A DNA stretch of 64,000 bases from Candidatus Kaiserbacteria bacterium RIFCSPHIGHO2_01_FULL_53_29 (GCA_001781125.1 MFKT01000009.1:126840-190839); one strand, 5' to 3'; shown: positions 45,675-63,207, numbered from the stretch's first letter. Made by a program: numbers and translations. Notes: generated by a model from the letters alone, not told the origin.

Positions 45675-45789
45675 GTCATTAATATAGCATAGACCTGTAT
45701 TGCACTTCAAGCCCCATATCACGACTCTGGCGGGTCGAAAACGCACGACTTTTGTGGATTTTGCACTCCCGCTCCGCTATTCGTGAGAT

Positions 45790-46143
45790 AAAAATGGGTT
45801 GATTTTTCATGGCCCTGGAGATTCGGCTGGAGGCGGAGGAGTCGGCTCTGGCTGTGGCTCGCCGGAGCCTTCGGCAGACTGTGTCTCGCCAGAGGCGGAC
45901 TCCGTCCCGCCGACGGCGGAGGCGGCTGGCGGTTCAGGACTTGGCGCAGGAGAAGGTGTTGTACCGGAGCCTGAGGAGTCACCTCAGGCTCCGGCGGCTC
46001 CCGCCGTCTGCCCCGAGAGCAACGCCTTCAGCTGTTCCTCGTTGACACAGGTGTCGTTGATGCAAAGCTGCTCTTTGGCGCGGAACGTGCGGGCGAAGAC
46101 TTCCTGAATGCCGTTCCCGGCATCGGCGAGCCATTCCGCTAAA
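45790..46143 (-). pseudogene. Degenerate fragment homologous to the 3' end of the giant gene at 46728..62771 (no start codon, frameshifted)
   Basis: The minus-strand frame reads LAEWLADAGNGIQEVFARTFRAKEQLCINDTCVNEEQLKALLSGQTAGAAGA*. This aligns with GIFDSVYARIFTTDELVFKRGTGDELTVKKLCLEDVCVTREEFKALLDKNGTQ near the giant protein's C-terminus. Downstream it continues, frameshifted, into a P/E/A-rich stretch like the giant's tail. Nucleotides 46018-46143 also resemble 47138-47300. Confidence 0.5.
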
Positions 46144-46435
46144 GGCCCGTGCGATGTTTAGTTTTTGGATTGCGCGAGGTATGGAACACGCCAATCACCT
46201 CCACGAGATCATCGGTGATTGTGTAGATCAGCAGCATGGGCAATCCGGGTATCGGACGCTCATACGAGTCGGTCTCGCCATCGAAGCGTGCTGCGCGCGG
46301 AAAGACCTTGAGTGCCTTCACGGCCATATCTACCCGCGCCGCAATGTCCGGCGCATGCGAAGGTGACCGTTTGGCGACGAACGATAGGATGCTTGCCACA
46401 TCGCCGAGTGCTTCGGCGGTGTAGGCCACTTTCAT
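46139..46435 (-). CDS. RelE/ParE-family type II toxin
   Basis: 98 aa. MKVAYTAEALGDVASILSFVAKRSP...LIYTITDDLVEVIGVFHTSRNPK shows the typical ParE-fold layout. Confidence 0.6.
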   Translation of the reverse strand: MKVAYTAEALGDVASILSFVAKRSPSHAPDIAARVDMAVKALKVFPRAARFDGETDSYERPIPGLPMLLIYTITDDLVEVIGVFHTSRNPKTKHRTGL

Positions 46436-46662
46436 AGGGAAGGATTGTAGCTTCGAAAGAGAGCCCGTACTTTGGCCTCTGGTGCATGAACCCGTGGCTT
46501 CGCCAGCCGTCGCTTGATCTCGCGCCGCTGCACAGTGTTCAACTGTGACTGGCTGAGGTCAGAAACACGCACAAGCAACTCTTGCGCGATCACCTCCTGC
46601 GCCTCCTTGGGCAGCCCGGTTACCGCCAAAACAGCTTCTGCTAATCTTTCGCGTGTTGTCAT
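46432..46662 (-). CDS. Putative addiction-module antitoxin (ParD/Phd-like, 'addiction module component' type)
   Basis: 76 aa. MTTRERLAEAVLAVTGLPKEAQEVIAQELL. Its stop overlaps the toxin start by 4 bp. Confidence 0.5.
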   Translation of the reverse strand: MTTRERLAEAVLAVTGLPKEAQEVIAQELLVRVSDLSQSQLNTVQRREIKRRLAKPRVHAPEAKVRALFRSYNPSL

Positions 46663-46727
46663 ATGACCGTTAGTTTACCATAATCCTCACCGGGCGCGCA
46701 AAGCCCGATTTCATTAAATCTTGCGGA

Positions 46728-49700: not shown

Positions 49701-52700
49701 CGAGATCGAAAGGCTGCTTCCGACTTGGGACCACGAGGCGCCGTTCCACTCATACACCGTAAGTGAGTCGTTGGTCGCGTCGATTAAGGCGACGCGCGAA
49801 GGCGAGAGAGCGGTCAGCGCCGGGCTCGTGGCGGACGCGATCGTGAGGCCGCTGCCGATCTGCGACCAGGTTGAGCCGTTGAATTCATAGGTACGCAGGG
49901 ATGTATTGGCGTCGTCGAGGAACGCGATACGATTCGGTCCGAGCGCCGCCATGCCCGCGGCGGCCACGCCGCCTCCGATGGTCGTACTCGTCCCGACTTG
50001 ATTCCAAACAGAGCCGTTGAACTCGTACGTGCGCAATTGATCGTTCGTCGTTTCAATGAACGCTATGCGGTTCGGTGAGAGGCCGGCGAGTGCCGGAGGT
50101 GTCCCCGATGTGATAGTGAGACCGGTTCCGATCTGTGACCAGGTAGAGGTAGCGCTGAATTCATATACGCGCAGCTCATCGTTAGTGGCGTCAATAAAGG
50201 CGATGCGGTTCGGTGAGAGCTCCGCCATCGCTGCTGCCGCAGACGTGGTGATGCCCATACTGACACCAAGTTGCGACCAACTGACGCCGTTCCATTCGTA
50301 CGCCGCGAGGACGTTGTTGTTGTTCTCAAAGAGGGCAACACGATTCGGCGATAGCGCGGCCATGGCAGGACCGCCGGCGCCTGTCACCGTCTTTCCACTC
50401 CCCACCTGCGCCCACGTCTGCGCGAGTCCTGCTGAGGAGATGGTCAGCTTCCCTGTCGTCGAGGCGTTCGAGCCGATGCCGAAGTTGCCTGAGGCGGACA
50501 TATAGAGCGTCGAGGTGGCAGTGAGTGTGGTGCCATCCTCTTGATAGTAGGGCATGTATCCCGCAGTTCCGGAAACTACCGTCCCACCGGAGTTGATCAT
50601 CAAGCACGTGCCCGCCACAGAGAAACAGCCGCTGGAGATATTCACGCCGTTGGCGAACGTGGAAGAGGCTGAGGTACCGGTGAGGTTAAGGTATGGAGTG
50701 TTGAGACCGTTGTAGATGGTGGAGGTTGCGGAGGCGTAGAAGTTGGCGGAGCCGTTAACGGAGAAAAGCGAAGCAGGGGTTGAACTGCCGATGCCCACAT
50801 TCCCGGTCGACGTCATGATGAAGTGCGTTGCGGTCGAGGAGCCGATGAGGAAAGAGGGGTTCGTCCCGTTCCCCGGATCGATGGAGACCTTGCCCCACGG
50901 CGTCGACGTGCCAACACCGACGTTGCTCGAGAAGAGCGCCCGGCCGTCGACGGTGAGGGATGGAGTAGAAGATGCAGCTGTCGAGGTGGCGCTCTGGCCG
51001 ATGCGGAGAGTGGTCCGCACGGACATCTCCTCCGCCATCGTGTGACCGGCGTCGGAGACGGTGAGGTAGGGGTAGTCCGCGCTGTTGCCGATGTGGAGGA
51101 GGGGGGAGGAGAATTGGTACGTGCGAAGCTCGTCGTTGTTCACATCAATGTAGGCAACACGGTTTGTCGACATCCCAGCGAGTGCCGGGATCGCAACCGT
51201 CGAGATCGACAGGTTGCTGCCCACCTGGGTCCAGCCGGAACCATTGAATTCATACGTCTGCAATACGTCGTTCGTCGCGTCGATGAAGGCGACACGGTTT
51301 TGGGACAGGGTCGCGAGCGCGGGAGACGTTGCCGACGCAATAGTCAGTCCGCTTCCCTGCTGTATCCACGTGGAGCCGTCAAATTCATACACGCGCAAGG
51401 AAGTGGCATTGTCATCGATAAACGCGATACGGTTTGGCGATAGCGTCGTCATTGCGGCTGCGGTCATGCCCGTGAACGAGACTCCGGTTCCCACCTGCGA
51501 CCACGTCGAGCCATTGAGTTCGTAGACGCGAAGCGAATCGTTGGTCGCGTCGATGAACGCAACGCGATTTGGCGAAAGCGCAGTGAGCCACGGACTGCCC
51601 ACCGTAGAGATAGCAAGCTCCGTTCCCACTTGCGACCACGTCGACGTCGCGCTGAGTTCATACACGCGCAGCGCATCATTCGTCCCGTCAATGAATGCGA
51701 CGCGGTTCGGCGAGAGCGCAGCCACCGCTGCCGCGGCGGCAGTTGAAATGGAGTAGCTCGGTCCGACTTGCGCCCAGGCTGCGCCGTCGAACTCAAAGTT
51801 CTTGAGCACATTGTTGTTGTTTTCAAATACCGCGACTCTGTTCGGTGAAAGGACAGTGATCGTAGGACCGCCGGAGCCCGAGATCGCTTTACCACTTCCG
51901 ATCTGCTGCCACGTCTGAGCGAGTCCCGCTGAGGAGATCGTGAGCCGTCCCGTGGTGGAAGCGGTGACACCGATACCTACTTTTCCTGCTGTTGAAAGGT
52001 AGAGCGATGATGTGGCCGTGAGCGCGGTACCGGTGTTTTCGTAGAACGGGAAGTAGCCTTGAGTTCCTGAAGTGATCGTTCCGCTTCCCTCAGTAAGACA
52101 GCTGCCATTCAAGGCGAAACACCCGCCGGAGAGATCGATGCCGTTGGCGAAGGTGGAGCTCGCGCTCGAGCCCGTGATGTTGAGGTATGGCGTCTCGAGA
52201 CCGTTGTAAATAGTGGAGGTGGCGGAGGCGAAGAAGTTGGCGGAGCCGTTGATGGAAAAGAGCGAGCTCGGCGTCGTTGTGCCGATGCCGACGTTGCCCG
52301 TATTCGTGACTATGAGATGCGCAGCGGTTGTGGAGCCGATGAAGAGTGAAGGCTGTGTGTTGTTGCCACTCACATCTATGGAGAGCCTTCCCCACGGTGT
52401 CGACGTGCCGATACCGACGTTACTTGAGAAGACTGCGCGGCCGTCGACGGTGAGTGCGGGGGTGGAACTCGCCGCGGTCGAGGTTGCGCTCTGCCCGATG
52501 CGGAGTTCTGTACGAACATTGAGTGCTTCTGCACTTGTGAGTCCAGCATCGGAAACGGTGAGGTACGGGTAGTCACTGCTGTTGCCGATGTGGAGGAGTG
52601 GGGAGGAGAATTGGTAGGTGCGGAGGGAGTCATTCGTGACATCGATAAACGCGACGCGATTCGGTGAGAGGGCGGCGAGAGCGGGAATGGCTACCGTTGC

Positions 52701-55700
52701 GATGGAAAGACTGTTCCCAACCTGCGCCCAACTAGAGCCGTTCCACTCATACACTCTAAGCGAATCGTTGGTGGCGTCGATAAAGGCGACGCGGGTCGGC
52801 GAGAGAGCGGTGAGGGTGGGAACGCCTACGTCGGAGATGGCAAGACCAGTACCTATCTGCGACCACACCGTACCGTTCAGTTCGTACATCCGCAGCGACG
52901 CATTGCTATCGTCGATGAAGGCGACGCGATTCGGGGAGATGGTGGCAAGGGCGGGCGTACCGACCGAGGAGATGCTCGTACTCGCGATCTCCGACCATGT
53001 GGAGCCATTGAATTCGTACGTGCTCAACTTGTCGCTTGTGGAATCGATAAGGGCAATGCGGTTGGGAGAGAGGCCAGCGAGAGCGGGCGTGCCGACCGAT
53101 CCGATCGTGAGACCGCTCCCGACGGTCGACCAGGTAGACGTCGCGCTGAATTCGTATACGCGGAGGGTGTCGTTGGTGCCTTCGATAAATGCGACGCGAT
53201 TCGGAGAAAGTGCGGCGAGAGCAGCAGTCGCCGACGTGGTGATGGGATGACTCACGCCCAGTTGCGCCCATCCGGCGCCGTTCCATTCGTATGTCGCGAG
53301 TACGTTGTTATTGTTCTCGAACAGTGCTACTCGATTGGGAGAAAGGGCAGCGAGAGCGGGTGCGCCCGCACTAGAAACCGTAAGCCCACTCCCCACCTGC
53401 TCCCATGTCTGCGCGAGGCCGGCGGAGGAGACAGTGAGACGACCTGTCGTCGAGGCGTTGGAGCCGATGCCAAAGTTTCCGTTTGGTGAGAGATAGGTCG
53501 ACGAAGTGGCAGTCAGGGTAGTACCGACGTACGAGAGCGTCTGGCCTGCCGTGCCTGATGGGAGAGAATCTCCGGCGGTGAGACACGTACCACTAACCGA
53601 GAAACATCCTCCCGCAAGGTCGATGCCGCGGGCGAAGGTCGAAGTGGCGGACGTGCCGGTGATGTTGAGATATGGGGATTCGATTCCGCCGGTGAACGTG
53701 GTCGTCGCCGGAGAGCCGAACGTAAAGGCGCCGCTCGTCCCGCTGATTGCAGCGGCTGCGACGCTGGATGTTGCGGAGTACGTGGACGTGGCGAGGAAGA
53801 AGGAGCCGCCAGCGTTGCGGAAGGTCCACGAATTGTTGGTACCGTCGCCAAGCGCGAACTGCGGACCGGATGAATTTGAAGAGGTTAAAGTCCAATTCGG
53901 CGTCGTCGTACCAATGCCAACCTTACTGTTCCCGAGTACGGATAGAATTGAATTCGTCGAACTCGCAGTCGCAATGTTGAAGATGTTTGCGGTAGTGCCG
54001 ATCGTCGATGAGGACGAAAGGAAAGAGCCGGAGCCGGTGACGAGGAGCGAGTTGCCTACGGTGAGCCCGCCCCTAAAGTCGCCATCAGAAGCAAAGAGGT
54101 TGTTGCGGAGCGAGAGCGTGCCTGCCTCGATACCACCGGCTTCAAGTTGTTGAACGTATGCGCCGCCGAGGTCCCAGACCTCGAAGGAATTTGACGTGCC
54201 TGTATCCGCAAAATATGCATAGCGGCCTTGGACAAAGACTCCCCTTCCGGCATTGTTTAAGTTATACGTTGCAACCCTCACTGGCGCGGCAGGATTTGAC
54301 ACGTCCCATATTTGGAACCCGTTTGCGGCACTAATATTTGCTATATAAGCATATCGGCCTTGAACGAAGAGGCCCTCGGAACCACCCGGGATTGTGCTCA
54401 GCGAGATGCGAGTCGGCAATGCCGGATTTGAAACATCCCAGATCTCAAAATCGGTTGATTGGTTCGTAATGTATGCATAGCGACCCTGAATATATATCGC
54501 ACTGCAACAGGAATTTTTAGTATTGCTCGATACACGGAAGGGTGCAGCGGGGTTGGATACATCCCATATCTCGAACGTGCTTTGATTACTACCTGCCAGA
54601 TACGCGTATTTACCTTGCACTCGTATACTTCCGGTAACACCAGCGGTACTTGCAGAGACGCGCACAGGTGCCGCCGGATTTGAGACGTCCCAAATTTCAA
54701 ATCCGTCAGTAGCGACGTTATCAGATAGGTATGCATACCGTCCCTGAACGTAAATATTCCTCCCGGTTTGATTCAAGGTATTTTGCGAAACGCGTATCGG
54801 TGCTGAAGGATTGGAGACGTCCCAAATTTCAAATCCGTTAGTGGCAGTTAGATCCGCTATGTAAGCATAGTTGCCCTGAACCTGGATACTTACGCCGCTG
54901 CCATTGAGTGTATTGCTCGAAAGTCGGATCGGTGACTCCGGATTCGAAACATCCCAAATTTCAAATGCATTGGTAGTGCCTAGATCGACCAAGTAGGCAT
55001 AGCGGCCCTGCACATATATACCGAAGCCGTTTGTGTTAAGGGTTCCTTGTCCCACCCGCCGTGCCGTCGTTGTTCCCGCCATGACACTAAGTTGTGCGAT
55101 GGTTGATGAGGCAGTGCCCCCGATAATGACCTGGCCGGTGTTGTTGATGGAAAATAGATTCAGATTGGCGGTGTTGGAGAGCGTGGAGGATGCTATCTGA
55201 AAGAGCATCGAGTTGGTCTCGCCGTTGCTGGCCTGGATGGAAAACTTTGCGTACGGCGTGGTAGAGCCAATGCCGACACGGCTAGTGGTGTCTATATAAA
55301 GAGTCGATGTGGCCGTGAGGGTCGTGCCGACGTATGAGAGCGTCTGGCCTGCGGTGCCAGTTGGGAGTGAATCTCCGGCAGTGAGACACGAGCCAGAGAT
55401 GGAGAAACATCCGCCGGCGAGATCGATACCGCGGGCGAAGGTCGAGGTCGCGGCGGTGCCGGTGATGTTGAGGTATGGAGTATTGAGTCCGTTGTAGATA
55501 GTAGAGGTGGCACCGCTGTAGAACTGCGCGGCGCTTGCGACGGAGAAGAGAGAGCCGGGGGTGGTGGTGCCGACACCGAGGTAGCCGTTGGCATTGACGG
55601 TGAGGATGCCTTGGTTGGTGGAGCTTGCGATCTGGAAGAGGTTGCTGCCGGTGGTTCCGTTGACTACGAAGTTGCCGCCCGGAGTCGTGGTGCCGATGCC

Positions 55701-58700
55701 GACGTTGCCGGCGGAAGTGATGCTTAAACGAGCGTCTGACAAAGTGATGTTACTGGAATCCGCCGCATTGTTTGTTGCAAGATGTAGCGTGCCAAGTCCA
55801 CCAGGAGCGCGCCGTTCAAAAAAGATACCGCCTTTTCTGTTGGTGTCGGTCGTTACATCAGACACCTCAAACAACAATTGAGCAGTTACCCCCGTTGTTA
55901 CAGAACTAGTCTGAATGAGGATCGTACCATCAGAATTATCAGAAATATGTAATTTTTTGTTCGGAAGAGCAGTTCCGATGCCCACCTTTCCCGCTGTCGA
56001 GATGAAGAGCGAGGAGGTGGCGGTGAGCGTCGTGTCAACGTATGAGAGGGTCTGCCCTGCCGTGCCTGATGGGAGAGAATCTCCGGCGATGAGACACGAG
56101 CCAGAGATGGAGAAACATCCGCCGGCGAGGTCGATGCCCCGCGCGAAGGTGGAGGTCGCAGCAGTGCCGGTGATGTTGAGGTACGGTGATTCGATGCCGC
56201 CCGTGAACGTGGTCGTCGCCGGAGAGCCGAAAGTAAAGGCGCCGCTCGTCCCGCTGATTGCAGCGGCGGCGACAGTTGAGGTCGCAGAGTATGTAGAGGT
56301 CGCGAGGAAGAAACTGCCGCCTGCGTTCCTGAACGTCCACGCATTGTTCGTGCCGTCGGCAAGTGCGATCTGTGGGCCGGTTGACGAGGCCACCGTAAGT
56401 ACTGAGGACGGCGTGGTCGTGCCGATACCGACAGAGCGACCGGTCGTAAAGATGTTGGAGTTGGTAGTGGATGCGTATGTCCACACCTCGGGCGAGTTGG
56501 CGCGCTGCGTCCAGTTCTTGTTTTGATTGGCGGTGGAGCTGATAGGCGCTCGGTATATGACGTCGGACAAGCCCCCGCCACCCCCCAGTCCACCGAACAG
56601 AAATACGTTTTCTCCGATTACAGCAAGTGGTGAGTATCCTAGTACACCGGGGAGGCTCTTGCCAGTGTCATCCCAGTTAGTTGGATCGGATACGGGTGCA
56701 CGGTAGATGACTTTTGAACCCTGCCCACCGAACAAATAAATATAATCTCCCGCTATCAGCACCGATGAGGCCCCTAGATTACCTGGCAGCACTGCTCCCG
56801 TATTGCTCCAACTTAGGGGATTAGAGACGGGAGCGCGATAAATCACATTGGTAAAATCGGATCCATATCCACCGAGTAAATATACATAATCGCCGATAGT
56901 AACGACGCTTGAGTACGCGAGTCCCCCGGGAAGGGTCGCGCTGGTATTCGACCAGGCCGTTGGATTCGATACTGGAGCGCGGTAGATACTTGTAAGCCCG
57001 TTGGAACCTTGATCGCCTCCAAAGAAGTAAACGTAATTACCAATAGTTGCAATACTGCTTCCTTCAATCGAATCAGGTAATGTCGCACCAGTGTCGCTCC
57101 AACTGGTGGGATTGGAAACGGGGGCGCGGTAAATGACGTTGGTCACGGAGGTACCGTTAAAGCCGCCAAAAAGATAGACGTAATCTCCAATAACCGAGAT
57201 GTTTGAATGTGACAGATTCCCCGGAAGAGTTGCCCCCGTGTCACTCCAGCTTGTGGGGTTGGAGAGGGGGGCGCGGTAAATGACATTCGTATGCCCGTTC
57301 CCGGTTGTGCGACCACCGAAAAGATAAATGTAATCACCTATCACTGCCAACTTTGAGTACGCGAGAGTGGAGGGAAGCGTACTTCCCGTGTCCACCCAAC
57401 TTCCCGGATCGAATTGGTAGCGGACCTGGGAGACCATGGAAAGAGCTGTCCAGTTGGATGAGAGCGCGGTCGTGGAAGCGTATGCATTTCGGAATTCGAG
57501 CATGCCACCGTTCTCGCGAAGACCATAGCCTTGTGCGCCCGCGCCGTATGCACCGCCGAAGTTGAGGTAGCGACTGCCCCCGTCGAGGTGGATGTTGCCG
57601 TACACGGCGAGTGTCGTGGAAGCGTATGGCGTCGTCGTACCGATGCCGAGGCTCCCCGCACTCGTAAAGGTGAGCGTGGATGAAGAAGTGAGTGTGCTTC
57701 CGGCAGAGAAGTATGCGAGCTGATTTGCTGTGCCAGAGCCTCCGATACCGCCGAGGCCCGCTGCGGAGAGACAGGTACCACTGATGGAATAGCAGCCGCC
57801 GGCGAGATCGATGCCGCGTGCGAACGTCGAGGTCGCAGCAGTGCCGGTGATGTTGAGGTAGGTGGAGGAGAGTCCATTTGAAAATGTTGATGTTCCACTT
57901 CCCTGCACGATGAGATTGCCTGTTGTCGTTGCTCCTCCGTATATGGTGAGGCCCGTGGTCTGTGTGCCACCGCCGATCGTTGAGCTCGCCGTCGAGATGA
58001 GCCCGGCGAAGGTCGAGAGGCCCGAGACACCGAGCGTCGAGCTAATGGTCTGCGCGCCGGTGAGCGCGAGAGTGGAGCCGTCGAACGTGAGGTTGGACGA
58101 TGATGTCAGGCTATCGGCATCCGAGTAGTACGCGAGACGATTGGCCGCACCAGCACCATCGAGGCCGCCGAGTCCTGTGGCAGAAAGACATGAGCCAGAG
58201 ATGGAGAAACAGCCGCCCGCGAGATCAATGCCCCGCGCGAAGGTGGAGGTGGCGGCTGTGCCGGTGATGTTGAGGTATGGTGATTCGATTCCGCCGGTGA
58301 ACGTGGTCGTCGCCGGAGAGCCGAAGGTGAACGCGCCGGTGCTGGCACTGATAGCGGCTGCGGCGACGGTGGAGGTCGCTGAGTATGTAGAGGTCGCGAG
58401 GAAGAAGGAGCCGCCAGCGTTGCGGAAGGTCCACGAGTTGTTGGTGCCGTCGCCGAGTGCGAACTGCGGACCTGTCGAGGATGCGATGGTCAGCGAGAAG
58501 AACGGTGTCGTCGTGCCGATGCCCACTTGCCCTGTCGACTTCCATATGCCCGATGGTAGATATGTCGAACCCGAAGAATCGATGTGCAAGGCGGTCGTCG
58601 AGGCGCTCGTGACCGCTTCAAAGATGTTGCCGGAGCTCGGTCCCCAGACGGTGAGCTTGGAGTACGGCGTCGAAGTGCCGAGGCCGAGCTTGCCACCGCT

Positions 58701-61700
58701 GCTGAGCGAAGTGAGTCGCAAGAGACTGCTTCCGGAAGTCGTGTAGTTGAGAGTGATGGAGTCGAGGACGGGCGTGTCGGAGCCGCCGCTAAAGATGACG
58801 CGGTAGTAGAAGTTGCTGCCGGTCCACGCGAGCGTGGAGAGCGAGACAGAGTTGCTCCCGACCGAGAGCGTGGTCGAAGCATTTGTAGTGCCCGCGGCAC
58901 TCTTCCACGTGCTGTTGTCCTGTGAGAACTGCACGCTCGCCCATGTGCCTGAGGGCAGCGCGGAGAGGGTGTAGTCGAGGGAGTCTATTGAAGAGACCGT
59001 ACCGCCCTCCGAGGAGAGGAGGTTGGTGGAGGTGGTGGTGCCGACGGACTTGTATGCGCCTGCTTCCACGGACCTGGAATATTGATAGACCGTGTCGTTT
59101 CCGATACCAACGATGTACATTTTCGAGCCGTCCGTCTTGAAGGCCATTCCGTACGGCTGGCTTTCTTGCGCTGCCACGCTCTTGGAGTCTGAGTCGTACG
59201 TTGCCGTGGAAATATCCCATGCGGTTGACAATGTATATTGGTAGACGGAGTCGCCCGTTGTATTGCCGAGCACATACATTTTCGTACCGGCCGATGAGAA
59301 CTCTACTTTATAGGGTTCACCGGTTTGAGACGATACGCTCTTTGATACCGAGTCGTACGATGCGGTCGAGACGTCCCAGGCAGAGGAAAGAGAATACTGC
59401 CAGACGCGCCCCCCAGTAATACCGATGACGTACATTTTTGTGCCGTCCGTCTTGAATGTTACGCCCACGGGATAAGTCTCTTGAGCACTGACGCTTTTAG
59501 ATTTTGATGCGTACGTGGCTGTAGAGACGTCCCACGGCGTAGAGAGTGTGTATTGATACACCGTGTCGTTCACGACACCCACGAGGTACATCTTTGATCC
59601 GTCGGTGCTGAATGCCATGCCGTACGGATCAGACTCCTGCGAACTAGCGGAGACACTCTTGTTGGCGTAGGAAGCTGACGAAACGACCCAGGCGGAAGAA
59701 AGCGTGTATTGAAAAACCGTATCGTCCGATCCATTGGCGAACCTAAGCGCATACATCTTGGTGCCATCGTCGTTAAAATTGACGGCTACAGGAAAGTCAG
59801 ATATTTGTTCACTTAAACTTTTGGATACGCTGTCGTATGAGAATTCGCTCACGTTGTTAGTATTGAGGGAGAGCGTCACCTGCCCACCACTCACGGTGGT
59901 CTGTGTCGCCGAGTCGATCTTGCTCGAATCGGCGTACGAGTCGGAATTGGTACTCGAGCCTCCCCCGCCGGTGATGTCGAGGGGTGTGAGGCTTGAGCTG
60001 GTCGCTGCGAGAGAAAGGAGGGAGCCCGGAGTGGTGGAGCCGATACCGAGGCGTGTGCCGTCGAAGACGAATCCGGAATTTGATGAGAGCGTCGTCGAGT
60101 CAGAAAAGAATGCGACGCGACTCGCAGCTCCCGAGCCGCCGACGCCGCCGAGGCCCGTGGCGGACAAACAAGTACCACTAATAGAGAAACATCCTCCCGC
60201 GAGGTCAATGCCTCTTGCAAATGTGGAAGTGGCGGCTGTGCCCGTGATGTTGAGGTACGGACTCTGGATGCCGGAAGAGAACGTGCTCGTAGCAGAACCA
60301 TTGAGATAGATGGAGCCGGTGCCGACCTTGAGCCCGCCCGCGATCTCGACATTCCCAGCGAAGGTCGACGAGGCCGAAGTCCCCTGGACGATGAGCGCTT
60401 GCGTCGTCGTCGCGCCGCCGTACACCGTGAGCCCGGTGGTTTGTCCGCCGCCGCCGATAGTTGAACTTGCTGTTGAAATGAGCCCGGCGAGCGTGGAGAG
60501 ACCGGAGACACCGAGTGTCGAGCTGATCGTCTGCGCGCCGGTAAGCGCGAGCGTCGAGCCGTCGAACGTGAGGTTGGACGATGATGTCAGGCTATCGGCA
60601 TCCGAGTAGTACGCGAGACGATTGGCCGCACCTGCCCCATCGAGGCCGCCGAGTCCTGTGGCAGAAAGACACGCGCCCGAGATGGAGAAACATCCGCCCG
60701 CCAGATCGATGCCGCGGGCGAAGGTGGAGGTGGCGGCGGTGCCCGTGATGTTGAGATACGGACTCTGAATGCCTGCGGCAAATGTTGAAGTCGCACTCGT
60801 CGAAGTGGCGGTGATGTAGTTGACCGTCGGGCTCGTCGAAGCCGCAAGCGCGCCCGTGCCGCCGCTCGAGTAGAGCCAGCCTTGACCGAAAGTTGCTGCG
60901 CCCGTGCCGCCGCTTGCAACGCCGAGCGTTCCGGAGATAGTAGAGAGCGTCGTCGATGCGGTCCATGTCGGGATTCCATTGAGATACGCGAGAATGTATC
61001 CGGCAGTACCGGTCGTCGTCGTTGAAAGCGCGCCGGTGCCGTTGCCGTATGGAATTGCGCTTGCAGCGATGTTGGCCCATCCCGTGCCACCGTTTGCGAT
61101 CGGAAGAATTCCCGTCACGTCGCTCGCGAGGTCGACAAGCGCTGTCGTCACCGCTCCCGCGACCGCTTTCAAGAATCCGGTGACGTTGGAAAAGGTAAAC
61201 GAATTGGATGCGACGAGAGCCGAGGTCGAGGCGGTGCCTGTGACGCCGAGATTGGTGCTCGTCGCGTTGACAAGCGTGGTTGCACCGGTAACCCCGAGCG
61301 TGCCCGCGACGGAAAGATTCCCCGCGGAGTCGATGGTGGTCGTCGCTGTGCCGCCGAAGTAGGCGGTGCCGAAGTTAGAGAAATTGGTTGAAGACGCACC
61401 AGCAGAAAAGATCTGAAGTGCAGTCCATGTGTTGGCTGCGGAGAGGCTGGCGCCCGCGCCTCCAGCTGATATGCACGTGCCGTCTATCGCGAAGCAGCCG
61501 TCCGCAATATCGATGCCGTTGGCAAAGCTCGAGGTCGCGGTGCCTGACACCGTGAGCGCGTTCGTCGATGCCCCGGCGGAAAACGTTTGAAGGGCCGACC
61601 ACGTGTTGGCGTTCGTCGTGTCGAGTGTGATCGTGCCATCGCTCGTTATCGTGCCGCCTGCGAGACCAGTGCCCGCAGTGATGGATGAGATGCCGCTATT

Positions 61701-62771
61701 GCCACCGCCGCTACTTCGAATGATCGTGGTGGTCTGCGTCGTCGTGGCTACCGAAATGATCGGACGATTGGCGGAGCCTGTTATCACGACGTTCTCGCCC
61801 GCTTGGATCCCATTGACGACATTGGATGCAAATATCTTGCCGCTTCCGAGGTCTATATCCGCTCCGCGTGTCGATATCCCACCCAAGGCGGAAACTGCGT
61901 TATAAAATGTTGACGCGCCGTTGAATGTACTCGCACCACCAAAAGTGCTTTGGCCGCTCGCAGTAAATGACCCTACCCGAACGAGTTGCGCGAATGACGA
62001 AGGCCCGCTGACGATGAGTGATTCAGAGAGGCGAAGCGGGACATTCATAGCTATGGATCCGGGAAGAACGATGTCGGGGCGCGCAACAGTCGTTCCGCCA
62101 ATGGTCTGCAACGAAGAGGCGCTGCGGGTCGTGCCTACGGGAGTGGAGCTGTCGCGAGAGGGGGTCAGCGTATCACCACCTTGGGCAAGGTGCGCCGCCG
62201 CGGCCTGCCTCCGCACATTTTCAGAAATAGGAAGATGGAGTGTCTGTGCAACTGTGGCGGATATTTTGATAGTCCCGGCCCTGAGGTGTGTTACCGTGTT
62301 GCGCGCAAATTCCTCTAGTTGCTTCGGCTGCACAAACGCATATGCGCTACCCGCAAGAGCAAAAAGACCCGAGAGTATGACGACAGCGGCAACTCGCGGC
62401 ATTGGAAGATACAGGAGTGTGCGTACTTTTGTATCCACACCATCGAGAGCCGCGATCGGAGATACGCCGGGAGTCTGTGGGAGCGGCACTCCTGATGAAG
62501 GATCAGTATTCGCTTCTCTCGTGTGCTCCTGATACTCCCGAATACGCTCCTTCCGAAGCACTTCAGCACTCTCAACTTTCAGCGCACTCTGGCCCTGCAG
62601 AAATTCTTTCAAAGAAGATCCGTCGACATACCATGTTTTGCCGATCGGTTTTCCGCGAACCTTTCCGGTTCGGCAAAGACGAGTAACATGGTCGCGCGTA
62701 ACGCCGGCAGCGTCCGCCGCAGCTTGCGCCGAAATACATATCGAACCGTCAATGAAAATGTGATCGGTCAT
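46728..62771 (-). CDS. Giant (5347 aa) multi-repeat surface protein: N-terminal HTH + TM helix, fibre-like Gly/Thr/Ser-rich repeats, Kelch and LVIVD beta-propellers, four ~500-aa tandem super-repeats, C-terminal tail-spike-type intramolecular chaperone (peptidase S74) domain and PE/PA-rich tail
   Basis: A single uninterrupted 16,044-nt ORF. N-terminal HTH: TRDHVTRLCRTGKVRGKPIGKTWYVDGSSLKEFL. TM helix: VAAVVILSGLFALAGSAYAFV. The motif PYLNITGTAATSTFARGIDLAGGCFSISG occurs about ten times. Kelch-like blades: GDYVYLFGG...VIYRAPVSNP. LVIVD blades: GRYAYxAD...GFEIWDVSNPxxP. Repeated blades ALAALSPNRVAFIDxTNDSLRVYEFNGSxWSQVG. C-terminal ...TGTITDVSDERLKENISSLG...LNPVSF... is the endosialidase/tail-fibre chaperone signature. 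The final ~100 aa are Pro/Glu/Ala-rich. Confidence 0.85.
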   Translation of the reverse strand: MTDHIFIDGSICISAQAAADAAGVTRDHVTRLCRTGKVRGKPIGKTWYVDGSSLKEFLQGQSALKVESAEVLRKERIREYQEHTREANTDPSSGVPLPQTPGVSPIAALDGVDTKVRTLLYLPMPRVAAVVILSGLFALAGSAYAFVQPKQLEEFARNTVTHLRAGTIKISATVAQTLHLPISENVRRQAAAAHLAQGGDTLTPSRDSSTPVGTTRSASSLQTIGGTTVARPDIVLPGSIAMNVPLRLSESLIVSGPSSFAQLVRVGSFTASGQSTFGGASTFNGASTFYNAVSALGGISTRGADIDLGSGKIFASNVVNGIQAGENVVITGSANRPIISVATTTQTTTIIRSSGGGNSGISSITAGTGLAGGTITSDGTITLDTTNANTWSALQTFSAGASTNALTVSGTATSSFANGIDIADGCFAIDGTCISAGGAGASLSAANTWTALQIFSAGASSTNFSNFGTAYFGGTATTTIDSAGNLSVAGTLGVTGATTLVNATSTNLGVTGTASTSALVASNSFTFSNVTGFLKAVAGAVTTALVDLASDVTGILPIANGGTGWANIAASAIPYGNGTGALSTTTTGTAGYILAYLNGIPTWTASTTLSTISGTLGVASGGTGAATFGQGWLYSSGGTGALAASTSPTVNYITATSTSATSTFAAGIQSPYLNITGTAATSTFARGIDLAGGCFSISGACLSATGLGGLDGAGAANRLAYYSDADSLTSSSNLTFDGSTLALTGAQTISSTLGVSGLSTLAGLISTASSTIGGGGQTTGLTVYGGATTTQALIVQGTSASSTFAGNVEIAGGLKVGTGSIYLNGSATSTFSSGIQSPYLNITGTAATSTFARGIDLAGGCFSISGTCLSATGLGGVGGSGAASRVAFFSDSTTLSSNSGFVFDGTRLGIGSTTPGSLLSLAATSSSLTPLDITGGGGSSTNSDSYADSSKIDSATQTTVSGGQVTLSLNTNNVSEFSYDSVSKSLSEQISDFPVAVNFNDDGTKMYALRFANGSDDTVFQYTLSSAWVVSSASYANKSVSASSQESDPYGMAFSTDGSKMYLVGVVNDTVYQYTLSTPWDVSTATYASKSKSVSAQETYPVGVTFKTDGTKMYVIGITGGRVWQYSLSSAWDVSTASYDSVSKSVSSQTGEPYKVEFSSAGTKMYVLGNTTGDSVYQYTLSTAWDISTATYDSDSKSVAAQESQPYGMAFKTDGSKMYIVGIGNDTVYQYSRSVEAGAYKSVGTTTSTNLLSSEGGTVSSIDSLDYTLSALPSGTWASVQFSQDNSTWKSAAGTTNASTTLSVGSNSVSLSTLAWTGSNFYYRVIFSGGSDTPVLDSITLNYTTSGSSLLRLTSLSSGGKLGLGTSTPYSKLTVWGPSSGNIFEAVTSASTTALHIDSSGSTYLPSGIWKSTGQVGIGTTTPFFSLTIASSTGPQFALGDGTNNSWTFRNAGGSFFLATSTYSATSTVAAAAISASTGAFTFGSPATTTFTGGIESPYLNITGTAATSTFARGIDLAGGCFSISGSCLSATGLGGLDGAGAANRLAYYSDADSLTSSSNLTFDGSTLALTGAQTISSTLGVSGLSTFAGLISTASSTIGGGTQTTGLTIYGGATTTGNLIVQGSGTSTFSNGLSSTYLNITGTAATSTFARGIDLAGGCYSISGTCLSAAGLGGIGGSGTANQLAYFSAGSTLTSSSTLTFTSAGSLGIGTTTPYASTTLAVYGNIHLDGGSRYLNFGGAYGAGAQGYGLRENGGMLEFRNAYASTTALSSNWTALSMVSQVRYQFDPGSWVDTGSTLPSTLAYSKLAVIGDYIYLFGGRTTGNGHTNVIYRAPLSNPTSWSDTGATLPGNLSHSNISVIGDYVYLFGGFNGTSVTNVIYRAPVSNPTSWSDTGATLPDSIEGSSIATIGNYVYFFGGDQGSNGLTSIYRAPVSNPTAWSNTSATLPGGLAYSSVVTIGDYVYLLGGYGSDFTNVIYRAPVSNPLSWSNTGAVLPGNLGASSVLIAGDYIYLFGGQGSKVIYRAPVSDPTNWDDTGKSLPGVLGYSPLAVIGENVFLFGGLGGGGGLSDVIYRAPISSTANQNKNWTQRANSPEVWTYASTTNSNIFTTGRSVGIGTTTPSSVLTVASSTGPQIALADGTNNAWTFRNAGGSFFLATSTYSATSTVAAAAISGTSGAFTFGSPATTTFTGGIESPYLNITGTAATSTFARGIDLAGGCFSISGSCLIAGDSLPSGTAGQTLSYVDTTLTATSSLFISTAGKVGIGTALPNKKLHISDNSDGTILIQTSSVTTGVTAQLLFEVSDVTTDTNRKGGIFFERRAPGGLGTLHLATNNAADSSNITLSDARLSITSAGNVGIGTTTPGGNFVVNGTTGSNLFQIASSTNQGILTVNANGYLGVGTTTPGSLFSVASAAQFYSGATSTIYNGLNTPYLNITGTAATSTFARGIDLAGGCFSISGSCLTAGDSLPTGTAGQTLSYVGTTLTATSTLYIDTTSRVGIGSTTPYAKFSIQASNGETNSMLFQIASSTLSNTANLNLFSINNTGQVIIGGTASSTIAQLSVMAGTTTARRVGQGTLNTNGFGIYVQGRYAYLVDLGTTNAFEIWDVSNPESPIRLSSNTLNGSGVSIQVQGNYAYIADLTATNGFEIWDVSNPSAPIRVSQNTLNQTGRNIYVQGRYAYLSDNVATDGFEIWDVSNPAAPVRVSASTAGVTGSIRVQGKYAYLAGSNQSTFEIWDVSNPAAPFRVSSNTKNSCCSAIYIQGRYAYITNQSTDFEIWDVSNPALPTRISLSTIPGGSEGLFVQGRYAYIANISAANGFQIWDVSNPAAPVRVATYNLNNAGRGVFVQGRYAYFADTGTSNSFEVWDLGGAYVQQLEAGGIEAGTLSLRNNLFASDGDFRGGLTVGNSLLVTGSGSFLSSSSTIGTTANIFNIATASSTNSILSVLGNSKVGIGTTTPNWTLTSSNSSGPQFALGDGTNNSWTFRNAGGSFFLATSTYSATSSVAAAAISGTSGAFTFGSPATTTFTGGIESPYLNITGTSATSTFARGIDLAGGCFSVSGTCLTAGDSLPSGTAGQTLSYVGTTLTATSSTYLSPNGNFGIGSNASTTGRLTVSSAGLAQTWEQVGSGLTVSSAGAPALAALSPNRVALFENNNNVLATYEWNGAGWAQLGVSHPITTSATAALAALSPNRVAFIEGTNDTLRVYEFSATSTWSTVGSGLTIGSVGTPALAGLSPNRIALIDSTSDKLSTYEFNGSTWSEIASTSISSVGTPALATISPNRVAFIDDSNASLRMYELNGTVWSQIGTGLAISDVGVPTLTALSPTRVAFIDATNDSLRVYEWNGSSWAQVGNSLSIATVAIPALAALSPNRVAFIDVTNDSLRTYQFSSPLLHIGNSSDYPYLTVSDAGLTSAEALNVRTELRIGQSATSTAASSTPALTVDGRAVFSSNVGIGTSTPWGRLSIDVSGNNTQPSLFIGSTTAAHLIVTNTGNVGIGTTTPSSLFSINGSANFFASATSTIYNGLETPYLNITGSSASSTFANGIDLSGGCFALNGSCLTEGSGTITSGTQGYFPFYENTGTALTATSSLYLSTAGKVGIGVTASTTGRLTISSAGLAQTWQQIGSGKAISGSGGPTITVLSPNRVAVFENNNNVLKNFEFDGAAWAQVGPSYSISTAAAAAVAALSPNRVAFIDGTNDALRVYELSATSTWSQVGTELAISTVGSPWLTALSPNRVAFIDATNDSLRVYELNGSTWSQVGTGVSFTGMTAAAMTTLSPNRIAFIDDNATSLRVYEFDGSTWIQQGSGLTIASATSPALATLSQNRVAFIDATNDVLQTYEFNGSGWTQVGSNLSISTVAIPALAGMSTNRVAYIDVNNDELRTYQFSSPLLHIGNSADYPYLTVSDAGHTMAEEMSVRTTLRIGQSATSTAASSTPSLTVDGRALFSSNVGVGTSTPWGKVSIDPGNGTNPSFLIGSSTATHFIMTSTGNVGIGSSTPASLFSVNGSANFYASATSTIYNGLNTPYLNLTGTSASSTFANGVNISSGCFSVAGTCLMINSGGTVVSGTAGYMPYYQEDGTTLTATSTLYMSASGNFGIGSNASTTGKLTISSAGLAQTWAQVGSGKTVTGAGGPAMAALSPNRVALFENNNNVLAAYEWNGVSWSQLGVSMGITTSAAAAMAELSPNRIAFIDATNDELRVYEFSATSTWSQIGTGLTITSGTPPALAGLSPNRIAFIETTNDQLRTYEFNGSVWNQVGTSTTIGGGVAAAGMAALGPNRIAFLDDANTSLRTYEFNGSTWSQIGSGLTIASATSPALTALSPSRVALIDATNDSLTVYEWNGASWSQVGSSLSISGVAIPALATLSPNRVAYIDVTNDSLRTYQFSSPLLHVGNSIDYPYLTVSDAGYTMAEEMFVRTGLRIGQSATSTAASSTPSLTVDGRAVFSSNVGVGTSTPWGKVSILPSGVGTDPSFYIGSSTTHFIVTNAGNVGIGTTTPGSLFSINASANFYASATSTIYNGLDTPYLNVTGTAATSTFARGIDLAGGCFSISGSCLIAGDSLPSGTAGQTLSYVGTTLTATSSMYLSANGNFGIGSNASTTGRLTISSAGLAQTWAQVGNTLSLSHVYPTIATLSPNSVAFVSGSGSLRKYVFDGASWTQQGSALAITISNQVVGIAALSPSRIAYLDANNDSLRVYEFGVSSWSQIGSGLTVSSIGQTPSLAALAPNRIALLDNDTGVVQAYEFNGSVWSSIGSSITPSGSFSQGAIAALNSNRIAYTDRTLDSLSTYEFNGTTWTKVGSSLALTAYHAAFPALAAMSPNRVAFFHSDHDLLTVYEFNGSTWSQVGSSLTISGIEDTPALAALSPNRVAFIDDFNDSLSTYQFSSPLLHIGNSADYPYLTVSDAGYTMAEEMFVRTGLRIGQSATSTAASSTPSLTVDGRAVFSSNVGIGTSTPWGRLSILPSGVDTSPSFYIGSSTTHLIVTNAGNVGIAMTDPSVALDVTGDIEYTGTITDVSDERLKENISSLGSSLSKILQLNPVSFNMIGASTTQLGFLAQNVQQYFPNTISIVDPENGYLGLDYTQLIAPAIGAIQELDAKFDALVATTSVAEIVNATTTPREEFATTTPWYAAFADASDGLKSALEGLGGMVVRAYNSAIYAVAGIFDSVYARIFTTDELVFKRGTGDELTVKKLCLEDVCVTREEFKALLDKNGTQSAQSAAAAASGGGSSPVPAPAPEPVPEPTPAPESPPAEEPAGDTPSETPDSPAEEPSADAPVEEAPADTGGGAAEAAPQEASPAPEPAPSPEPAPAPAPAPEPAPEPAPEPAPAPAPEPAPEQIPAPTETP
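47400..53400. repeat. Four tandem ~1.5-kb near-identical intragenic repeats (each ~498 codons) within the giant gene
   Basis: The anchor peptide on the antisense ORF track (M.TPLGRME..PHGVEVP.PTLLEKTARPSTVR.GVEEAAVDVALWPMRRPVRTNISSAIVYPASETVRYG) recurs at 47866, 49360, ~50870 and ~52380, a period of 1494 nt. The corresponding sense-strand peptide is TVDGRAVFSSNVGIGTSTPWGRLSI. Confidence 0.6.
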
Positions 62772-63207
62772 TGTCCTAGAAGTGGCGTCGCCGTGCCGAC
62801 ATACCTATTAGATTAGCAAGGAAGCGTGGATTGCTAGGCAAAACAGTTCCAAAAAATGGGGACAACTATTCAGGCAGAAATGAGTGGGTCCACATGGATA
62901 TCCAGGTGTTGAAAACACGAGCGCACCATCCTACCTGGAAGTCTATCCGAGGGTGTCACTAACCGATGGGACGCCGTTCACCACAATTGGATAGCTGCAT
63001 GCCCGAACCGTGCTGTATGTTCAGAAATAGGGCTCGGGCAGATCTTGAAAAGAAGCACGCAGCCCCTAACAATGGTTTGGCTCTCTTTCCTAGCCGAGAT
63101 GCATCCGAGATACGCAAATAAGCCCTATCTCGGTCACCCTAGATAGCCTCGCGATCTCTTGTGATGGCCGCTATCACACAAGCAGCAATGCCGTCACCTC
63201 GACGTGT

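What the first reader, a model, noticed from the sequence alone, without database searches (positions are those of the whole stretch)
62330..62771. Excisionase/MerR-like helix-turn-helix at the N-terminus of the giant protein, followed by a single TM helix
The first 60 residues (…AADAAGVTRDHVTRLCRTGKVRGKPIGKTWYVDGSSLKEFLQ) look like an HTH_17/excisionase-type DNA-binding domain, which should be cytoplasmic. They are followed by about 60 charged residues and one TM helix (aa 126-147), then 5200 aa that must be extracellular. A membrane-tethered DNA-binding domain on a giant surface protein would be an odd topology. It could be a signalling device, a relic of a fused upstream gene, or a mis-called start.
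Basis: partly seen in the sequence, partly recalled or inferred. Interest (0 to 1): 0.55.

Follow-up and report, generated by a model that had tools for sequence, protein, structure and literature searches.

The report
Membrane-tethered Xis/BldC-type HTH on giant fibre
The giant surface protein of this Kaiserbacteria (CPR) genome really does begin with a cytoplasmic excisionase/BldC-type DNA-binding domain followed by one membrane helix. This head is the conserved hallmark of a large, undescribed family of Parcubacteria surface proteins, not an annotation error.

Summary
Residues 14-61 match Pfam HTH_17, just above the curated cut-off. AlphaFold models residues 1-88 with pLDDT above 90 as a winged helix plus a long helix, and the closest solved folds are Xis, RdfS, TraN and BldC. 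Residues about 126-147 are the only hydrophobic segment in 5347 aa.

The start at 62771 is sound. It is the first start codon of the ORF, the closest homolog also starts MTD, and M124 is Leu in that homolog. Ten independent assemblies carry identical DNA and the same called start.

The fusion is ancient. A profile search finds 3878 cluster representatives, 550 of them at E<=1e-10. Of the best hits of at least 300 aa, 87 of 88 have HTH, linker, one hydrophobic helix, then an ectodomain of variable length. In all 45 related genome loci the HTH is in frame with the long ORF.

Canonical relatives add two features. One is a family-specific upstream element built of 11-bp phased direct repeats. The other is a conserved upstream partner gene with two HTHs and one TM. 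The window gene has only a decayed element and no partner nearby.

The best reading is an N-in/C-out anchor whose cytoplasmic HTH probably binds DNA. DNA binding is inferred, not shown.

The parts
46728..62771 (-). Giant ORF, 5347 aa; a diverged 'type-1' member of the HTH-TM surface-protein family
   Evidence: The same 5347-aa product is called in independent assemblies.
62508..62771 (-). aa 1-88: conserved N-terminal module, a winged HTH (beta-hairpin, two helices, wing) plus a long helix 51-88
   Evidence: AF2 pLDDT >90. Foldseek matches Xis, RdfS, TraN and BldC. The profile built on this region finds 3878 representatives.
62589..62732 (-). aa 14-61: Pfam HTH_17 (PF12728) match
   Evidence: 27.7 bits, gathering score 27.
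62397..62507 (-). aa 89-125: Pro/Ser-rich linker, low confidence and poorly conserved
   Evidence: pLDDT ~50. Linker length varies from 2 to 179 aa across the family, median 74.
62331..62396 (-). aa 126-147: the single hydrophobic helix (signal-anchor), ending in GSAYA|FVQP. This corresponds to the family motif FGTYA-LVDP and fits the -3/-1 rule for signal peptidase I.
   Evidence: Cleavage was not tested.
62797..62865 (-). Decayed copy of the family-specific upstream element: TTGTCCCCA box (62865-62857) and TAGGTATGTCG half-site (62807-62797), ending 25 nt before the ATG
   Evidence: Two weak but collinear nhmmer hits at the expected spacing. There is a 14/23 match to the core element and no significant 11-bp periodicity.
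62772..63207 (.). 437-bp intergenic region between atpC and the giant gene
   Evidence: No Rfam match, no convincing ORF, no sigma-70 consensus on the gene strand.
47571..47723 (-). aa 5017-5067: Peptidase_S74 intramolecular chaperone domain (tail-fibre/endosialidase type), followed by a Pro-rich tail
   Evidence: 48.5 bits, gathering score 22. This supports a trimeric extracellular fibre whose only possible membrane anchor is the N-terminal helix.

Best explanation
Codons 1-147 encode a genuine, ancient N-terminal anchoring module. It consists of a cytoplasmic Xis/BldC-type winged HTH, a conserved helix, a flexible linker and one membrane helix. The helix acts as a signal-anchor (N-in, C-out) for a 5200-aa tail-fibre-like ectodomain. 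The module defines a large family of surface proteins in Kaiserbacteria and other Parcubacteria, with ectodomains from about 100 to more than 5000 aa.

Shown: the domain, the single hydrophobic helix, the start codon, and the conservation of the fused architecture.

Inferred: the HTH stays in the cytoplasm and binds DNA, most likely phased direct repeats, as BldC and Xis do by head-to-tail oligomerisation. That would link the surface fibre, or its co-translational export, to the chromosome or to transcription of the family's genes. Canonical relatives carry such repeats in a family-specific promoter element. They also sit next to a conserved partner protein with two HTHs and one TM.

The window gene is an orphan, diverged copy. 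It has a decayed element and no partner within 56 kb, so its HTH may act in trans at other loci or only as a cytoplasmic oligomerisation head.
For: Domain and fold.

Single hydrophobic segment.

Start codon.

Family size and architecture: there are 3878 representatives at E<=1e-3 and 550 at E<=1e-10. Of those of at least 300 aa, 87 of 88 have the HTH followed by a hydrophobic helix within 250 aa. The HTH is fused in frame in all 45 genome loci, which are Kaiserbacteria, Parcubacteria and Paceibacterota MAGs. The juxtamembrane and TM sequence is itself conserved (HVPxYxxTPxxEFxHK...FGTYAxVDPxYARFA), and the window protein keeps ...GSAYAFVQP.

DNA link: an ~85-nt element upstream of canonical type-1 genes contains CTAGTAAAATA|CTAGATAAATC. 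Its lag-11 self-identity is 42.5% against 26% expected. A scan of metagenome contigs with the element alone found 37 sites. Of these, 29 had the family HTH within 420 nt, and 3 more had it behind an inserted GxxExxY gene.

Subfamily specificity: the element occurs only before type-1 genes (recognition helix TRDYIARLCR, with Arg at the position of BldC's base-contacting R30). It does not occur before type-2 genes (DYIGQLAR, with Gln there). BldC binds direct repeats head-to-tail (PMC5859096).

Partner gene: a type-2 gene lies directly upstream, on the same strand, in 43 of 45 genome loci.

Organism: Candidatus Kaiserbacteria.
Against: No experiment or docking shows DNA binding.

The HTH_17 score is only marginally above Pfam's threshold for this protein.

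Wing residues differ from BldC: K45/T46/W47 against H46/R47/R48.

The association of the element with type-1 genes could reflect shared ancestry plus a separate regulator or sigma factor, rather than binding by the encoded HTH.

In the window itself the element is degenerate (14/23, no periodicity). There is also no type-2 gene in the 64-kb window or in the ~9 kb beyond its end (10 kb upstream of atpC).

The positive-inside rule does not discriminate orientation across the family (2.15 against 1.91 K+R), so N-in rests on domain logic.

The related loci were retrieved with patterns typical of canonical type-1 genes, so the synteny statistics are biased towards them.
Confidence: 0.6

Rival explanations
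1. The HTH is a cytoplasmic protein-protein interaction or oligomerisation head and does not bind DNA. The precedent is RodZ, whose HTH binds MreB. The head could dock the fibre to a cytoplasmic partner, or to the heads of the two-HTH partner protein.
For: The HTH is almost identical across paralogs with unrelated ectodomains, which fits one common ligand. The net charge of the first 60 aa is modest, mean +1.65. The window gene lacks an intact element yet keeps the HTH. Wing residues differ from BldC.
Against: The BldC R30 and K33 equivalents are conserved in type 1. The closest folds are all DNA binders. A family-specific array of 11-bp direct repeats sits next to the genes.
Confidence: 0.22
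2. The hydrophobic helix is the h-region of an extended, cleavable signal peptide. Signal peptidase I cuts after A-Y-A145 (family: T-Y-A | LVDP). This frees the fibre and leaves a ~145-aa HTH-TM stub, which could later be released as a one-per-export cytoplasmic signal. This rival is compatible with DNA binding.
For: The family consensus HK-LIALTLAFTLTF-GTYA|LVDP has the n-h-c layout. It has a 12-residue h-region, a Gly in the c-region and small residues at -3 and -1. The window protein has R-VAAVVILSGLFALAG-SAYA|FVQP.
Against: The uncharged span is 18-21 residues, long enough for a stable TM. The C-terminal S74 domain is normally auto-cleaved, so cutting the N-terminus as well would leave the fibre with no evident cell attachment (inference). 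No signal-peptide predictor was available.
Confidence: 0.15
3. Annotation or assembly artefact. On this reading the true protein starts at or after the TM (for example at M124), and the HTH belongs to a separate small gene or is a recent, functionless fusion.
For: M124-PRVAAVV... would look like an ordinary signal peptide. There is no strong Shine-Dalgarno before M1.
Against: There is no stop codon between the HTH and the TM. Ten assemblies have identical sequence. M124 is Leu in P0001. The fusion is conserved in all 45 genome loci and in 87 of 88 long representatives. Relatives also lack a Shine-Dalgarno and start at the same MSDE motif.
Confidence: 0.03

Closest known systems
BldC / Xis / RdfS-type small winged-HTH proteins (MerR-like, Pfam HTH_17)
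   Same: Same fold and Pfam family. The BldC R30 and K33 equivalents are conserved. Canonical relatives sit next to phased direct repeats, which is the kind of site BldC and Xis oligomerise on head-to-tail (PMC5859096; PMC11963761).
   Different: Those proteins are free cytoplasmic proteins of 55-70 aa. Here the domain carries an extra conserved helix and is covalently tethered to the membrane and to a 5200-aa ectodomain. The wing residues differ. DNA binding is untested.
ToxR / CadC / TcpP membrane-bound one-component transcription factors
   Same: An N-terminal cytoplasmic DNA-binding domain, one TM and an extracytoplasmic C-terminal part. ToxR also binds direct repeats (established knowledge).
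   Different: ToxR-type proteins use an OmpR-type winged helix and have a small periplasmic sensor domain. Here the domain is an HTH_17, and the outside part is a giant tail-fibre-like structure with an S74 chaperone domain.
RodZ
   Same: A cytoplasmic HTH, one TM and an external domain. RodZ is the precedent for such an HTH binding a protein (MreB) rather than DNA (established knowledge).
   Different: RodZ has an XRE-type HTH and a DUF4115 domain. Neither is detected here.
TraN of pIP501 (two excisionase-like HTHs in one chain)
   Same: Second-best structural match. It resembles the tandem-HTH arrangement of the type-2 partner proteins and of 56 of the 150 best family representatives.
   Different: TraN is a soluble conjugation protein with no TM or ectodomain.
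Phage tail-fibre / endosialidase proteins with a C-terminal Peptidase_S74 chaperone
   Same: The C-terminal S74 domain and a repetitive beta-rich fibre. Some relatives carry Gp34_trimer.
   Different: Phage fibres have no N-terminal HTH or TM. This gene is chromosomal, lying between the ATP synthase operon and the ribonucleotide reductase genes.

Membership tests
Pfam HTH_17 (PF12728) / excisionase-type winged HTH | Sequence match at or above the curated gathering score | tested here: met
   27.7 bits against 27.0, E=3.4e-6, so the match is marginal. Relatives reach E=1e-16, and 17 of 39 match at E<1e-3.
Pfam HTH_17 (PF12728) / excisionase-type winged HTH | Fold with helix-turn-helix plus beta-hairpin wing, superposable on Xis/BldC | tested here: met
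   AF2 pLDDT >90 for aa 1-88. Matches: 4j2n TM 0.70 with rmsd 1.7 A, 6ama TM 0.73, 8dgl.
Pfam HTH_17 (PF12728) / excisionase-type winged HTH | Binds double-stranded DNA | not testable with these tools
   Only indirect evidence: conserved R31 and R34 and repeat arrays next to relatives.
BldC family (stand-alone MerR-like regulators) | A small free protein consisting only of the wHTH | tested here: not met
   The domain is fused to a helix, linker, TM and 5200 aa.
BldC family (stand-alone MerR-like regulators) | Target sites are direct repeats bound head-to-tail | tested here: inconclusive
   Canonical relatives have 11-bp phased repeats upstream (z=20 at lag 11). The window's own upstream region does not.
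ToxR-like membrane-bound transcription factors | OmpR/PhoB-type winged-helix DNA-binding domain (Trans_reg_C) | tested here: not met
   Pfam reports only HTH_17 in the N-terminal 342 aa.
ToxR-like membrane-bound transcription factors | Cytoplasmic N-terminal DNA-binding domain, single TM, external C-terminal domain | tested here: met
   One hydrophobic segment after the HTH. Orientation is inferred, and the positive-inside rule is uninformative.
RodZ | XRE-type HTH (HTH_25) and C-terminal DUF4115 | tested here: not met
   No such Pfam hits.
Classical MerR regulators | MerR-type HTH, coiled-coil dimerisation helix and C-terminal effector-binding region | tested here: not met
   A long helix follows the HTH. 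There is no MerR Pfam or NCBIfam match and no effector domain.
Sec signal peptide cleaved by signal peptidase I | n-h-c regions with small residues at -3 and -1 | tested here: inconclusive
   A-Y-A|F fits the rule and the motif is conserved in the family. The hydrophobic span of 18-21 aa also suits a stable TM. No predictor was available.
Parcubacteria HTH-TM surface-protein family (defined here, type 1) | N-terminal M[ST]D..F.DG...ISA..AA...TRD(Y/H).(A/T)RLCR.GK..G...GK.WYV, then the R..E.L..ER..EY helix, a linker and a TM ending G(T/S)YA.V.P | tested here: met
   Alignments. The profile scores 113 bits on the window ORF.
Parcubacteria HTH-TM surface-protein family (defined here, type 1) | Canonical context: a type-2 (2xHTH-TM) gene directly upstream and an intact CTAG-repeat element | tested here: not met
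   No type-2 gene within 56 kb. The element is decayed.

The most novel reading that the evidence does not exclude
The HTH-TM head could be an export-coupled, membrane-tethered autoregulatory device. The N-terminal BldC-like HTH emerges first from the ribosome. Together with the adjacent two-HTH membrane protein, it would oligomerise head-to-tail on the 11-bp phased repeats of the family promoter. That would tether the very long gene to the membrane for co-transcriptional, co-translational export and feed back on initiation. If the helix is cleaved at the conserved YA|LV site, the stub would become a one-per-exported-fibre cytoplasmic signal. This would be a CPR-specific way of coupling surface-fibre production to the chromosome.
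Probability: 0.25. Interest if true: 0.8.

Novelty: new variant of a known kind. Interest (0 to 1): 0.62.

Why it matters
CPR/Patescibacteria are thought to live by attaching to other cells, and their huge surface proteins are prime candidates for host contact. Almost nothing is known about how these proteins are anchored or regulated.

This finding shows that a whole class of these proteins shares a cytoplasmic DNA-binding-type head, a conserved membrane helix, a dedicated promoter element and a conserved partner gene. The class covers hundreds to thousands of sequence clusters. That gives a concrete, testable handle on their biogenesis and control: a ~90-aa domain and a ~23-bp repeat that can be synthesised.

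It also supplies an N-terminal signature for recognising such proteins in fragmented metagenomes, and it defines protein and DNA families that Pfam, NCBIfam and Rfam do not yet hold.

Tried and rejected
- **Word-indexed homolog search.** It was almost blind here: 1 hit with the N-terminal 200 aa and 11 short hits with a 31-sequence profile. The exhaustive representative search was needed.
- **P0001.** Its contig is not on record, so no DNA was available for the closest homolog.
- **The search for related loci.** It failed with the broad alignment and worked with seven close sequences. This biases the loci towards canonical type-1 genes.
- **PDB sequence search.** A search with the family profile gave nothing significant.
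- **Promoter and terminator scan.** No sigma-70 consensus promoter or terminator was found on the gene strand upstream of the ATG.
- **RNA searches.** No Rfam family or tRNA was found in the region or the window.
- **Positive-inside rule.** It did not resolve orientation.
- **TTATCCACA (DnaA-box-like) motif.** It is not enriched in the window: 10 found against 9.6 expected.
- **Window upstream region.** It has no significant 11-bp periodicity and only trivial repeats.
- **Palindrome or hairpin reading of CTAGTA-AAA-TACTAG.** Dropped, because the second arm varies without compensation; the conserved feature is the 11-bp direct repeat.
- **Literature.** Full-text searches found no description of this module.

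Full report
**1. What is in the sequence**

The minus-strand ORF 46728..62771 encodes 5347 aa. Its ATG at 62771 is the first possible start codon after the in-frame stop at 62807.

Pfam assigns HTH_17 (PF12728) to aa 14-61 with E=3.4e-6 and 27.7 bits, against a gathering score of 27. That is a marginal pass. NCBIfam gives nothing above threshold.

A hydropathy scan of all 5347 residues finds a single hydrophobic segment, at aa ~118-147.

The rest of the protein carries Kelch, LVIVD and beta-propeller repeats. Near the C-terminus, at aa 5017-5067, it has a Peptidase_S74 intramolecular-chaperone domain of the tail-fibre/endosialidase type, followed by a Pro-rich tail.

**2. Fold of the head**

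I modelled aa 1-160 with a shallow alignment of the window protein and 12 homologs.

- AlphaFold2 models aa 1-88 at pLDDT above 90. The elements are a beta-hairpin, helix 15-22, helix 26-35, a beta-hairpin wing at 40-50, and a long helix at 51-88.
- Residues 89-125 are low confidence.
- Residues 124-144 form the hydrophobic helix.

The closest solved structures by Foldseek are mycobacteriophage Pukovnik Xis (4j2n, target TM 0.70, rmsd 1.7 A over 47 residues), TraN of pIP501, the RdfS excisionase and BldC. E-values are weak because the domain is about 50 residues, but probabilities are 0.97-1.0.

A profile comparison with BldC aligns aa 8-65 with BldC 7-65 (pairwise E=1.9e-4, probability 47%). 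The alignment puts R31 opposite BldC R30, the base-contacting arginine, and R34 opposite K33, a phosphate contact. Wing residues differ.

**3. Is the start right?**

- M124, just before the hydrophobic helix, is the only internal ATG. It has no Shine-Dalgarno.
- The closest homolog, P0001, is 54% identical and is a 174-aa fragment. It begins with the same MTD and has Leu at the position of M124. It conserves both the HTH and the end of the helix...GSAYAFV.
- Ten contigs from different samples and assemblers (ENA, JGI, Logan) carry identical DNA. The identical stretch runs from 437 nt upstream to up to 1500 nt into the gene.
- All of those contigs have the gene called from the same ATG, and two of them have it called as a 5347-aa product.

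The fusion is therefore neither an assembly artefact nor a frameshift artefact.

Neighbouring proteins are identical to entries of Candidatus Kaiserbacteria MAGs.

**4. The fusion is ancient and widespread**

An exhaustive profile search with the first 173 residues against 1.84 billion cluster representatives found 3878 proteins at E<=1e-3 and 550 at E<=1e-10. Nearly all matches lie at the N-terminus of proteins from 75 to 5533 aa.

Among the best 150:

- 87 of the 88 that are at least 300 aa long have the HTH followed by a hydrophobic helix within 250 residues. The median linker is 74 aa.
- 56 carry two tandem HTH modules.

Named members come from Parcubacteria and Minisyncoccia.

The ectodomains are mostly dark to Pfam. 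Some contain Peptidase_S74, Gp34_trimer, surface Ig-like domains or inteins.

The helix and its flanks are themselves conserved: HVPxYxxTPxxEFxHK-LxALxLAxxLTFGTYAxVDPxYARFA. So the whole head, not only the HTH, is one module.

In all 45 related loci recovered from species-representative genomes (Kaiserbacteria, Parcubacteria, Paceibacterota and Nomurabacteria MAGs), the HTH is in frame with a long ORF. Most of these ORFs run off the contig after 600-2100 aa. None has the HTH as a separate upstream gene.

**5. Context found in relatives: a family-specific DNA element**

Upstream of the ATG of canonical relatives lies a strikingly conserved element of about 85 nt. Its consensus is TTATCCACA ... 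GATATCCGRAAT..CTAGTAAAATA|CTAGATAAATC-G(G/T)GCATCCG(A/C)AC. The ATG follows 1-83 nt later, without a Shine-Dalgarno.

- The element is an array of direct repeats phased at 11 bp. Self-identity at lag 11 is 42.5% against 26% expected. The z-score of 20 is inflated because the sequences are related.
- As an unbiased test I scanned metagenome contigs with the core element alone, which gave 37 sites.
- At 29 of them the family HTH is encoded within 420 nt downstream.
- At 3 more the family gene lies behind an inserted GxxExxY-type gene.
- Two sites are cut by contig ends, and 3 are unrelated.

The element is thus close to specific for this gene family.

**6. Context found in relatives: two subfamilies and a conserved gene pair**

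A six-frame profile scan of all loci separates two types.

- **Type 1.** One HTH (sometimes two) with recognition helix TRDY(I/V)ARLCR and wing GKNWYV, then a TM, then a long ectodomain. The window protein is a diverged type 1, with TRDHVTRLCR and GKTWYV.
- **Type 2.** Two tandem HTHs (SSKRAS..GYAQDYIGQLAR..GGLWYV) and one TM at about aa 240-270. Total length is 292-350 aa, and 70 of 73 complete copies have two HTHs.

In 43 of the 45 genome loci a type-2 gene lies directly upstream of the type-1 gene on the same strand. The gap is 144-923 nt and holds the element. In the two loci where the sequence reaches that far upstream, gatB precedes type 2.

The element occurs only before type-1 genes. 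Every type-2 gene has at least 8 mismatches to the 23-mer, which is background level. At the position of BldC's base-contacting Arg, type 1 has Arg and type 2 has Gln.

Type-2 proteins also match only HTH_17/excisionase models, and no curated family describes them.

**7. The window gene is an orphan copy**

- It follows the ATP synthase operon (atpA-G-D-C). No type-2 gene lies in the 64-kb window or in the ~9 kb beyond its end (10 kb upstream of atpC).
- Its upstream region keeps only remnants of the element. These are a TTGTCCCCA box (62865-62857) and a TAGGTATGTCG half-site (62807-62797), ending 25 nt before the ATG.
- The remnants appear as two weak nhmmer hits that are collinear with the model at the right spacing.
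- There is only a 14/23 match to the core and no significant 11-bp periodicity.
- No Rfam family, ORF or consensus promoter explains the remaining 437-bp spacer.

**8. How it most likely works**

*Shown.* A real Xis/BldC-type wHTH, a conserved helix, a variable linker and one hydrophobic helix, all translated as the N-terminus of the fibre. This architecture is conserved across a very large family.

*Inferred about topology.* The head folds in the cytoplasm and has no signal peptide in front of it. The helix therefore acts as a signal-anchor, N-in and C-out. S74 domains are normally auto-cleaved after trimerisation (established knowledge of endosialidase-type chaperones). That makes the N-terminal helix the only evident attachment of the fibre to the cell.

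*Inferred about function.* The HTH binds DNA. The reasons are as follows.

- The closest folds are all DNA binders.
- The key Arg and Lys positions of BldC are kept.
- BldC- and Xis-type domains oligomerise head-to-tail on direct repeats (PMC5859096, PMC11963761).
- Canonical family genes sit behind exactly such phased repeats.
- Tandem HTHs in one chain, or three heads brought together by a trimeric fibre, would suit that binding mode.

Whether the outcome is autoregulation, tethering of a very long gene to the membrane during coupled transcription, translation and export, or signalling from the cell surface cannot be decided here.

I put about 0.9 on the architecture and the start codon, and about 0.45 on DNA binding as the function. 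The overall figure I give is 0.6.

**9. Rivals**

- **(a) A RodZ-like protein-binding head.** This is supported by the near-identity of the HTH across paralogs with unrelated ectodomains, and by the window gene keeping the HTH while its element has decayed.
- **(b) An extended, cleavable signal peptide.** The family consensus HK-LIALTLAFTLTF-GTYA|LVDP and the window's SAYA|FVQP fit the n-h-c layout and the -3/-1 rule. The 18-21 uncharged residues also suit a stable TM, and I had no predictor to test this.
- **(c) A mis-called start or accidental fusion.** This is effectively excluded (sections 3 and 4).

**10. Comparison with what is known, and novelty**

The domain is a member of HTH_17. The protein is not a member of the BldC, MerR, ToxR or RodZ families, because defining features were tested and failed: it is not stand-alone, has no effector domain, has no OmpR-type domain, and has no XRE-type HTH or DUF4115.

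It works most like a ToxR- or RodZ-style membrane-tethered HTH. It differs in having an Xis/BldC-type domain and a giant tail-fibre-like ectodomain.

Full-text searches found no description of this module, its promoter element or the type-2/type-1 gene pair. The held library is incomplete, so this is absence of evidence only.

I rate it a new variant of a known kind. Interest is 0.62. The window instance itself is a degenerate orphan, but it exposes a large, coherent and experimentally tractable system in CPR bacteria.

Noticed in passing
L001-L045 and L047-L084 (e.g. L001 4523-5524 and 6001-; L084 957-1847 and 2123-2545): A conserved two-gene cassette in Kaiserbacteria and other Parcubacteria. 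A ~300-335-aa protein with two tandem HTH_17 domains and one TM lies directly upstream, on the same strand, of the HTH-TM fibre gene. This holds in 43 of 45 genome loci. gatB precedes it where the sequence reaches that far.
   Followed up: partly
Upstream of type-1 genes in L001-L082 (e.g. L016 5911-5997); decayed copy at window 62797-62865 (-): A family-specific element of about 85 nt made of 11-bp phased direct repeats. It starts with a perfect DnaA-box-like TTATCCACA and ends with CTAGTAAAATA|CTAGATAAATCG and GCATCCGAAC. A motif-only metagenome scan hit the family in 32 of 37 sites. It is not in Rfam and does not match the sigma-70 consensus.
   Followed up: partly
L002 5516-6004; L053, L054, L076: A GxxExxY-type (PD-(D/E)XK-like) gene of 144-162 aa is inserted exactly between the promoter element and the type-1 gene, and overlaps its ATG. 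It looks like a mobile insertion that hijacks the promoter. The family assignment is from memory of the N-terminal motif and was not scanned.
   Followed up: no
L006 5977-6003; L043; in general: Family genes lack a Shine-Dalgarno, and the ATG lies 1-83 nt after the element (1 nt in L006). This suggests very short leaders or leaderless mRNAs.
   Followed up: no
Family alignment of the TM region; window aa 119-149 (62325-62417): The juxtamembrane and TM sequence is conserved: HVPxYxxTPxxEFxHK...FGTYAxVDPxYARFA. This is unusual for a mere anchor. It could be a protease site or a specific intramembrane contact.
   Followed up: partly
Family members P0004-P0134: Four of 39 long family members contain intein splicing domains inside the surface protein, and one carries a NYN nuclease domain.
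   Followed up: no
Window 46728-47570 (-), aa 5068-5347: After the S74 chaperone domain the protein continues for about 280 aa and ends in a long PAPEPAPEP-type Pro-rich tail. S74 domains are usually C-terminal and cleaved off, so the role of this tail is unclear.
   Followed up: no
Window ~45500-46700 (L090 548-1071): A ParE-toxin gene with a small upstream ORF, a likely toxin-antitoxin pair, lies immediately downstream of the giant gene.
   Followed up: no
L084 2123-2545; L085 1198-1593: Complete short family members (131-140 aa) with the HTH and helix but no hydrophobic segment exist. So soluble versions of the head occur alongside the tethered ones.
   Followed up: no
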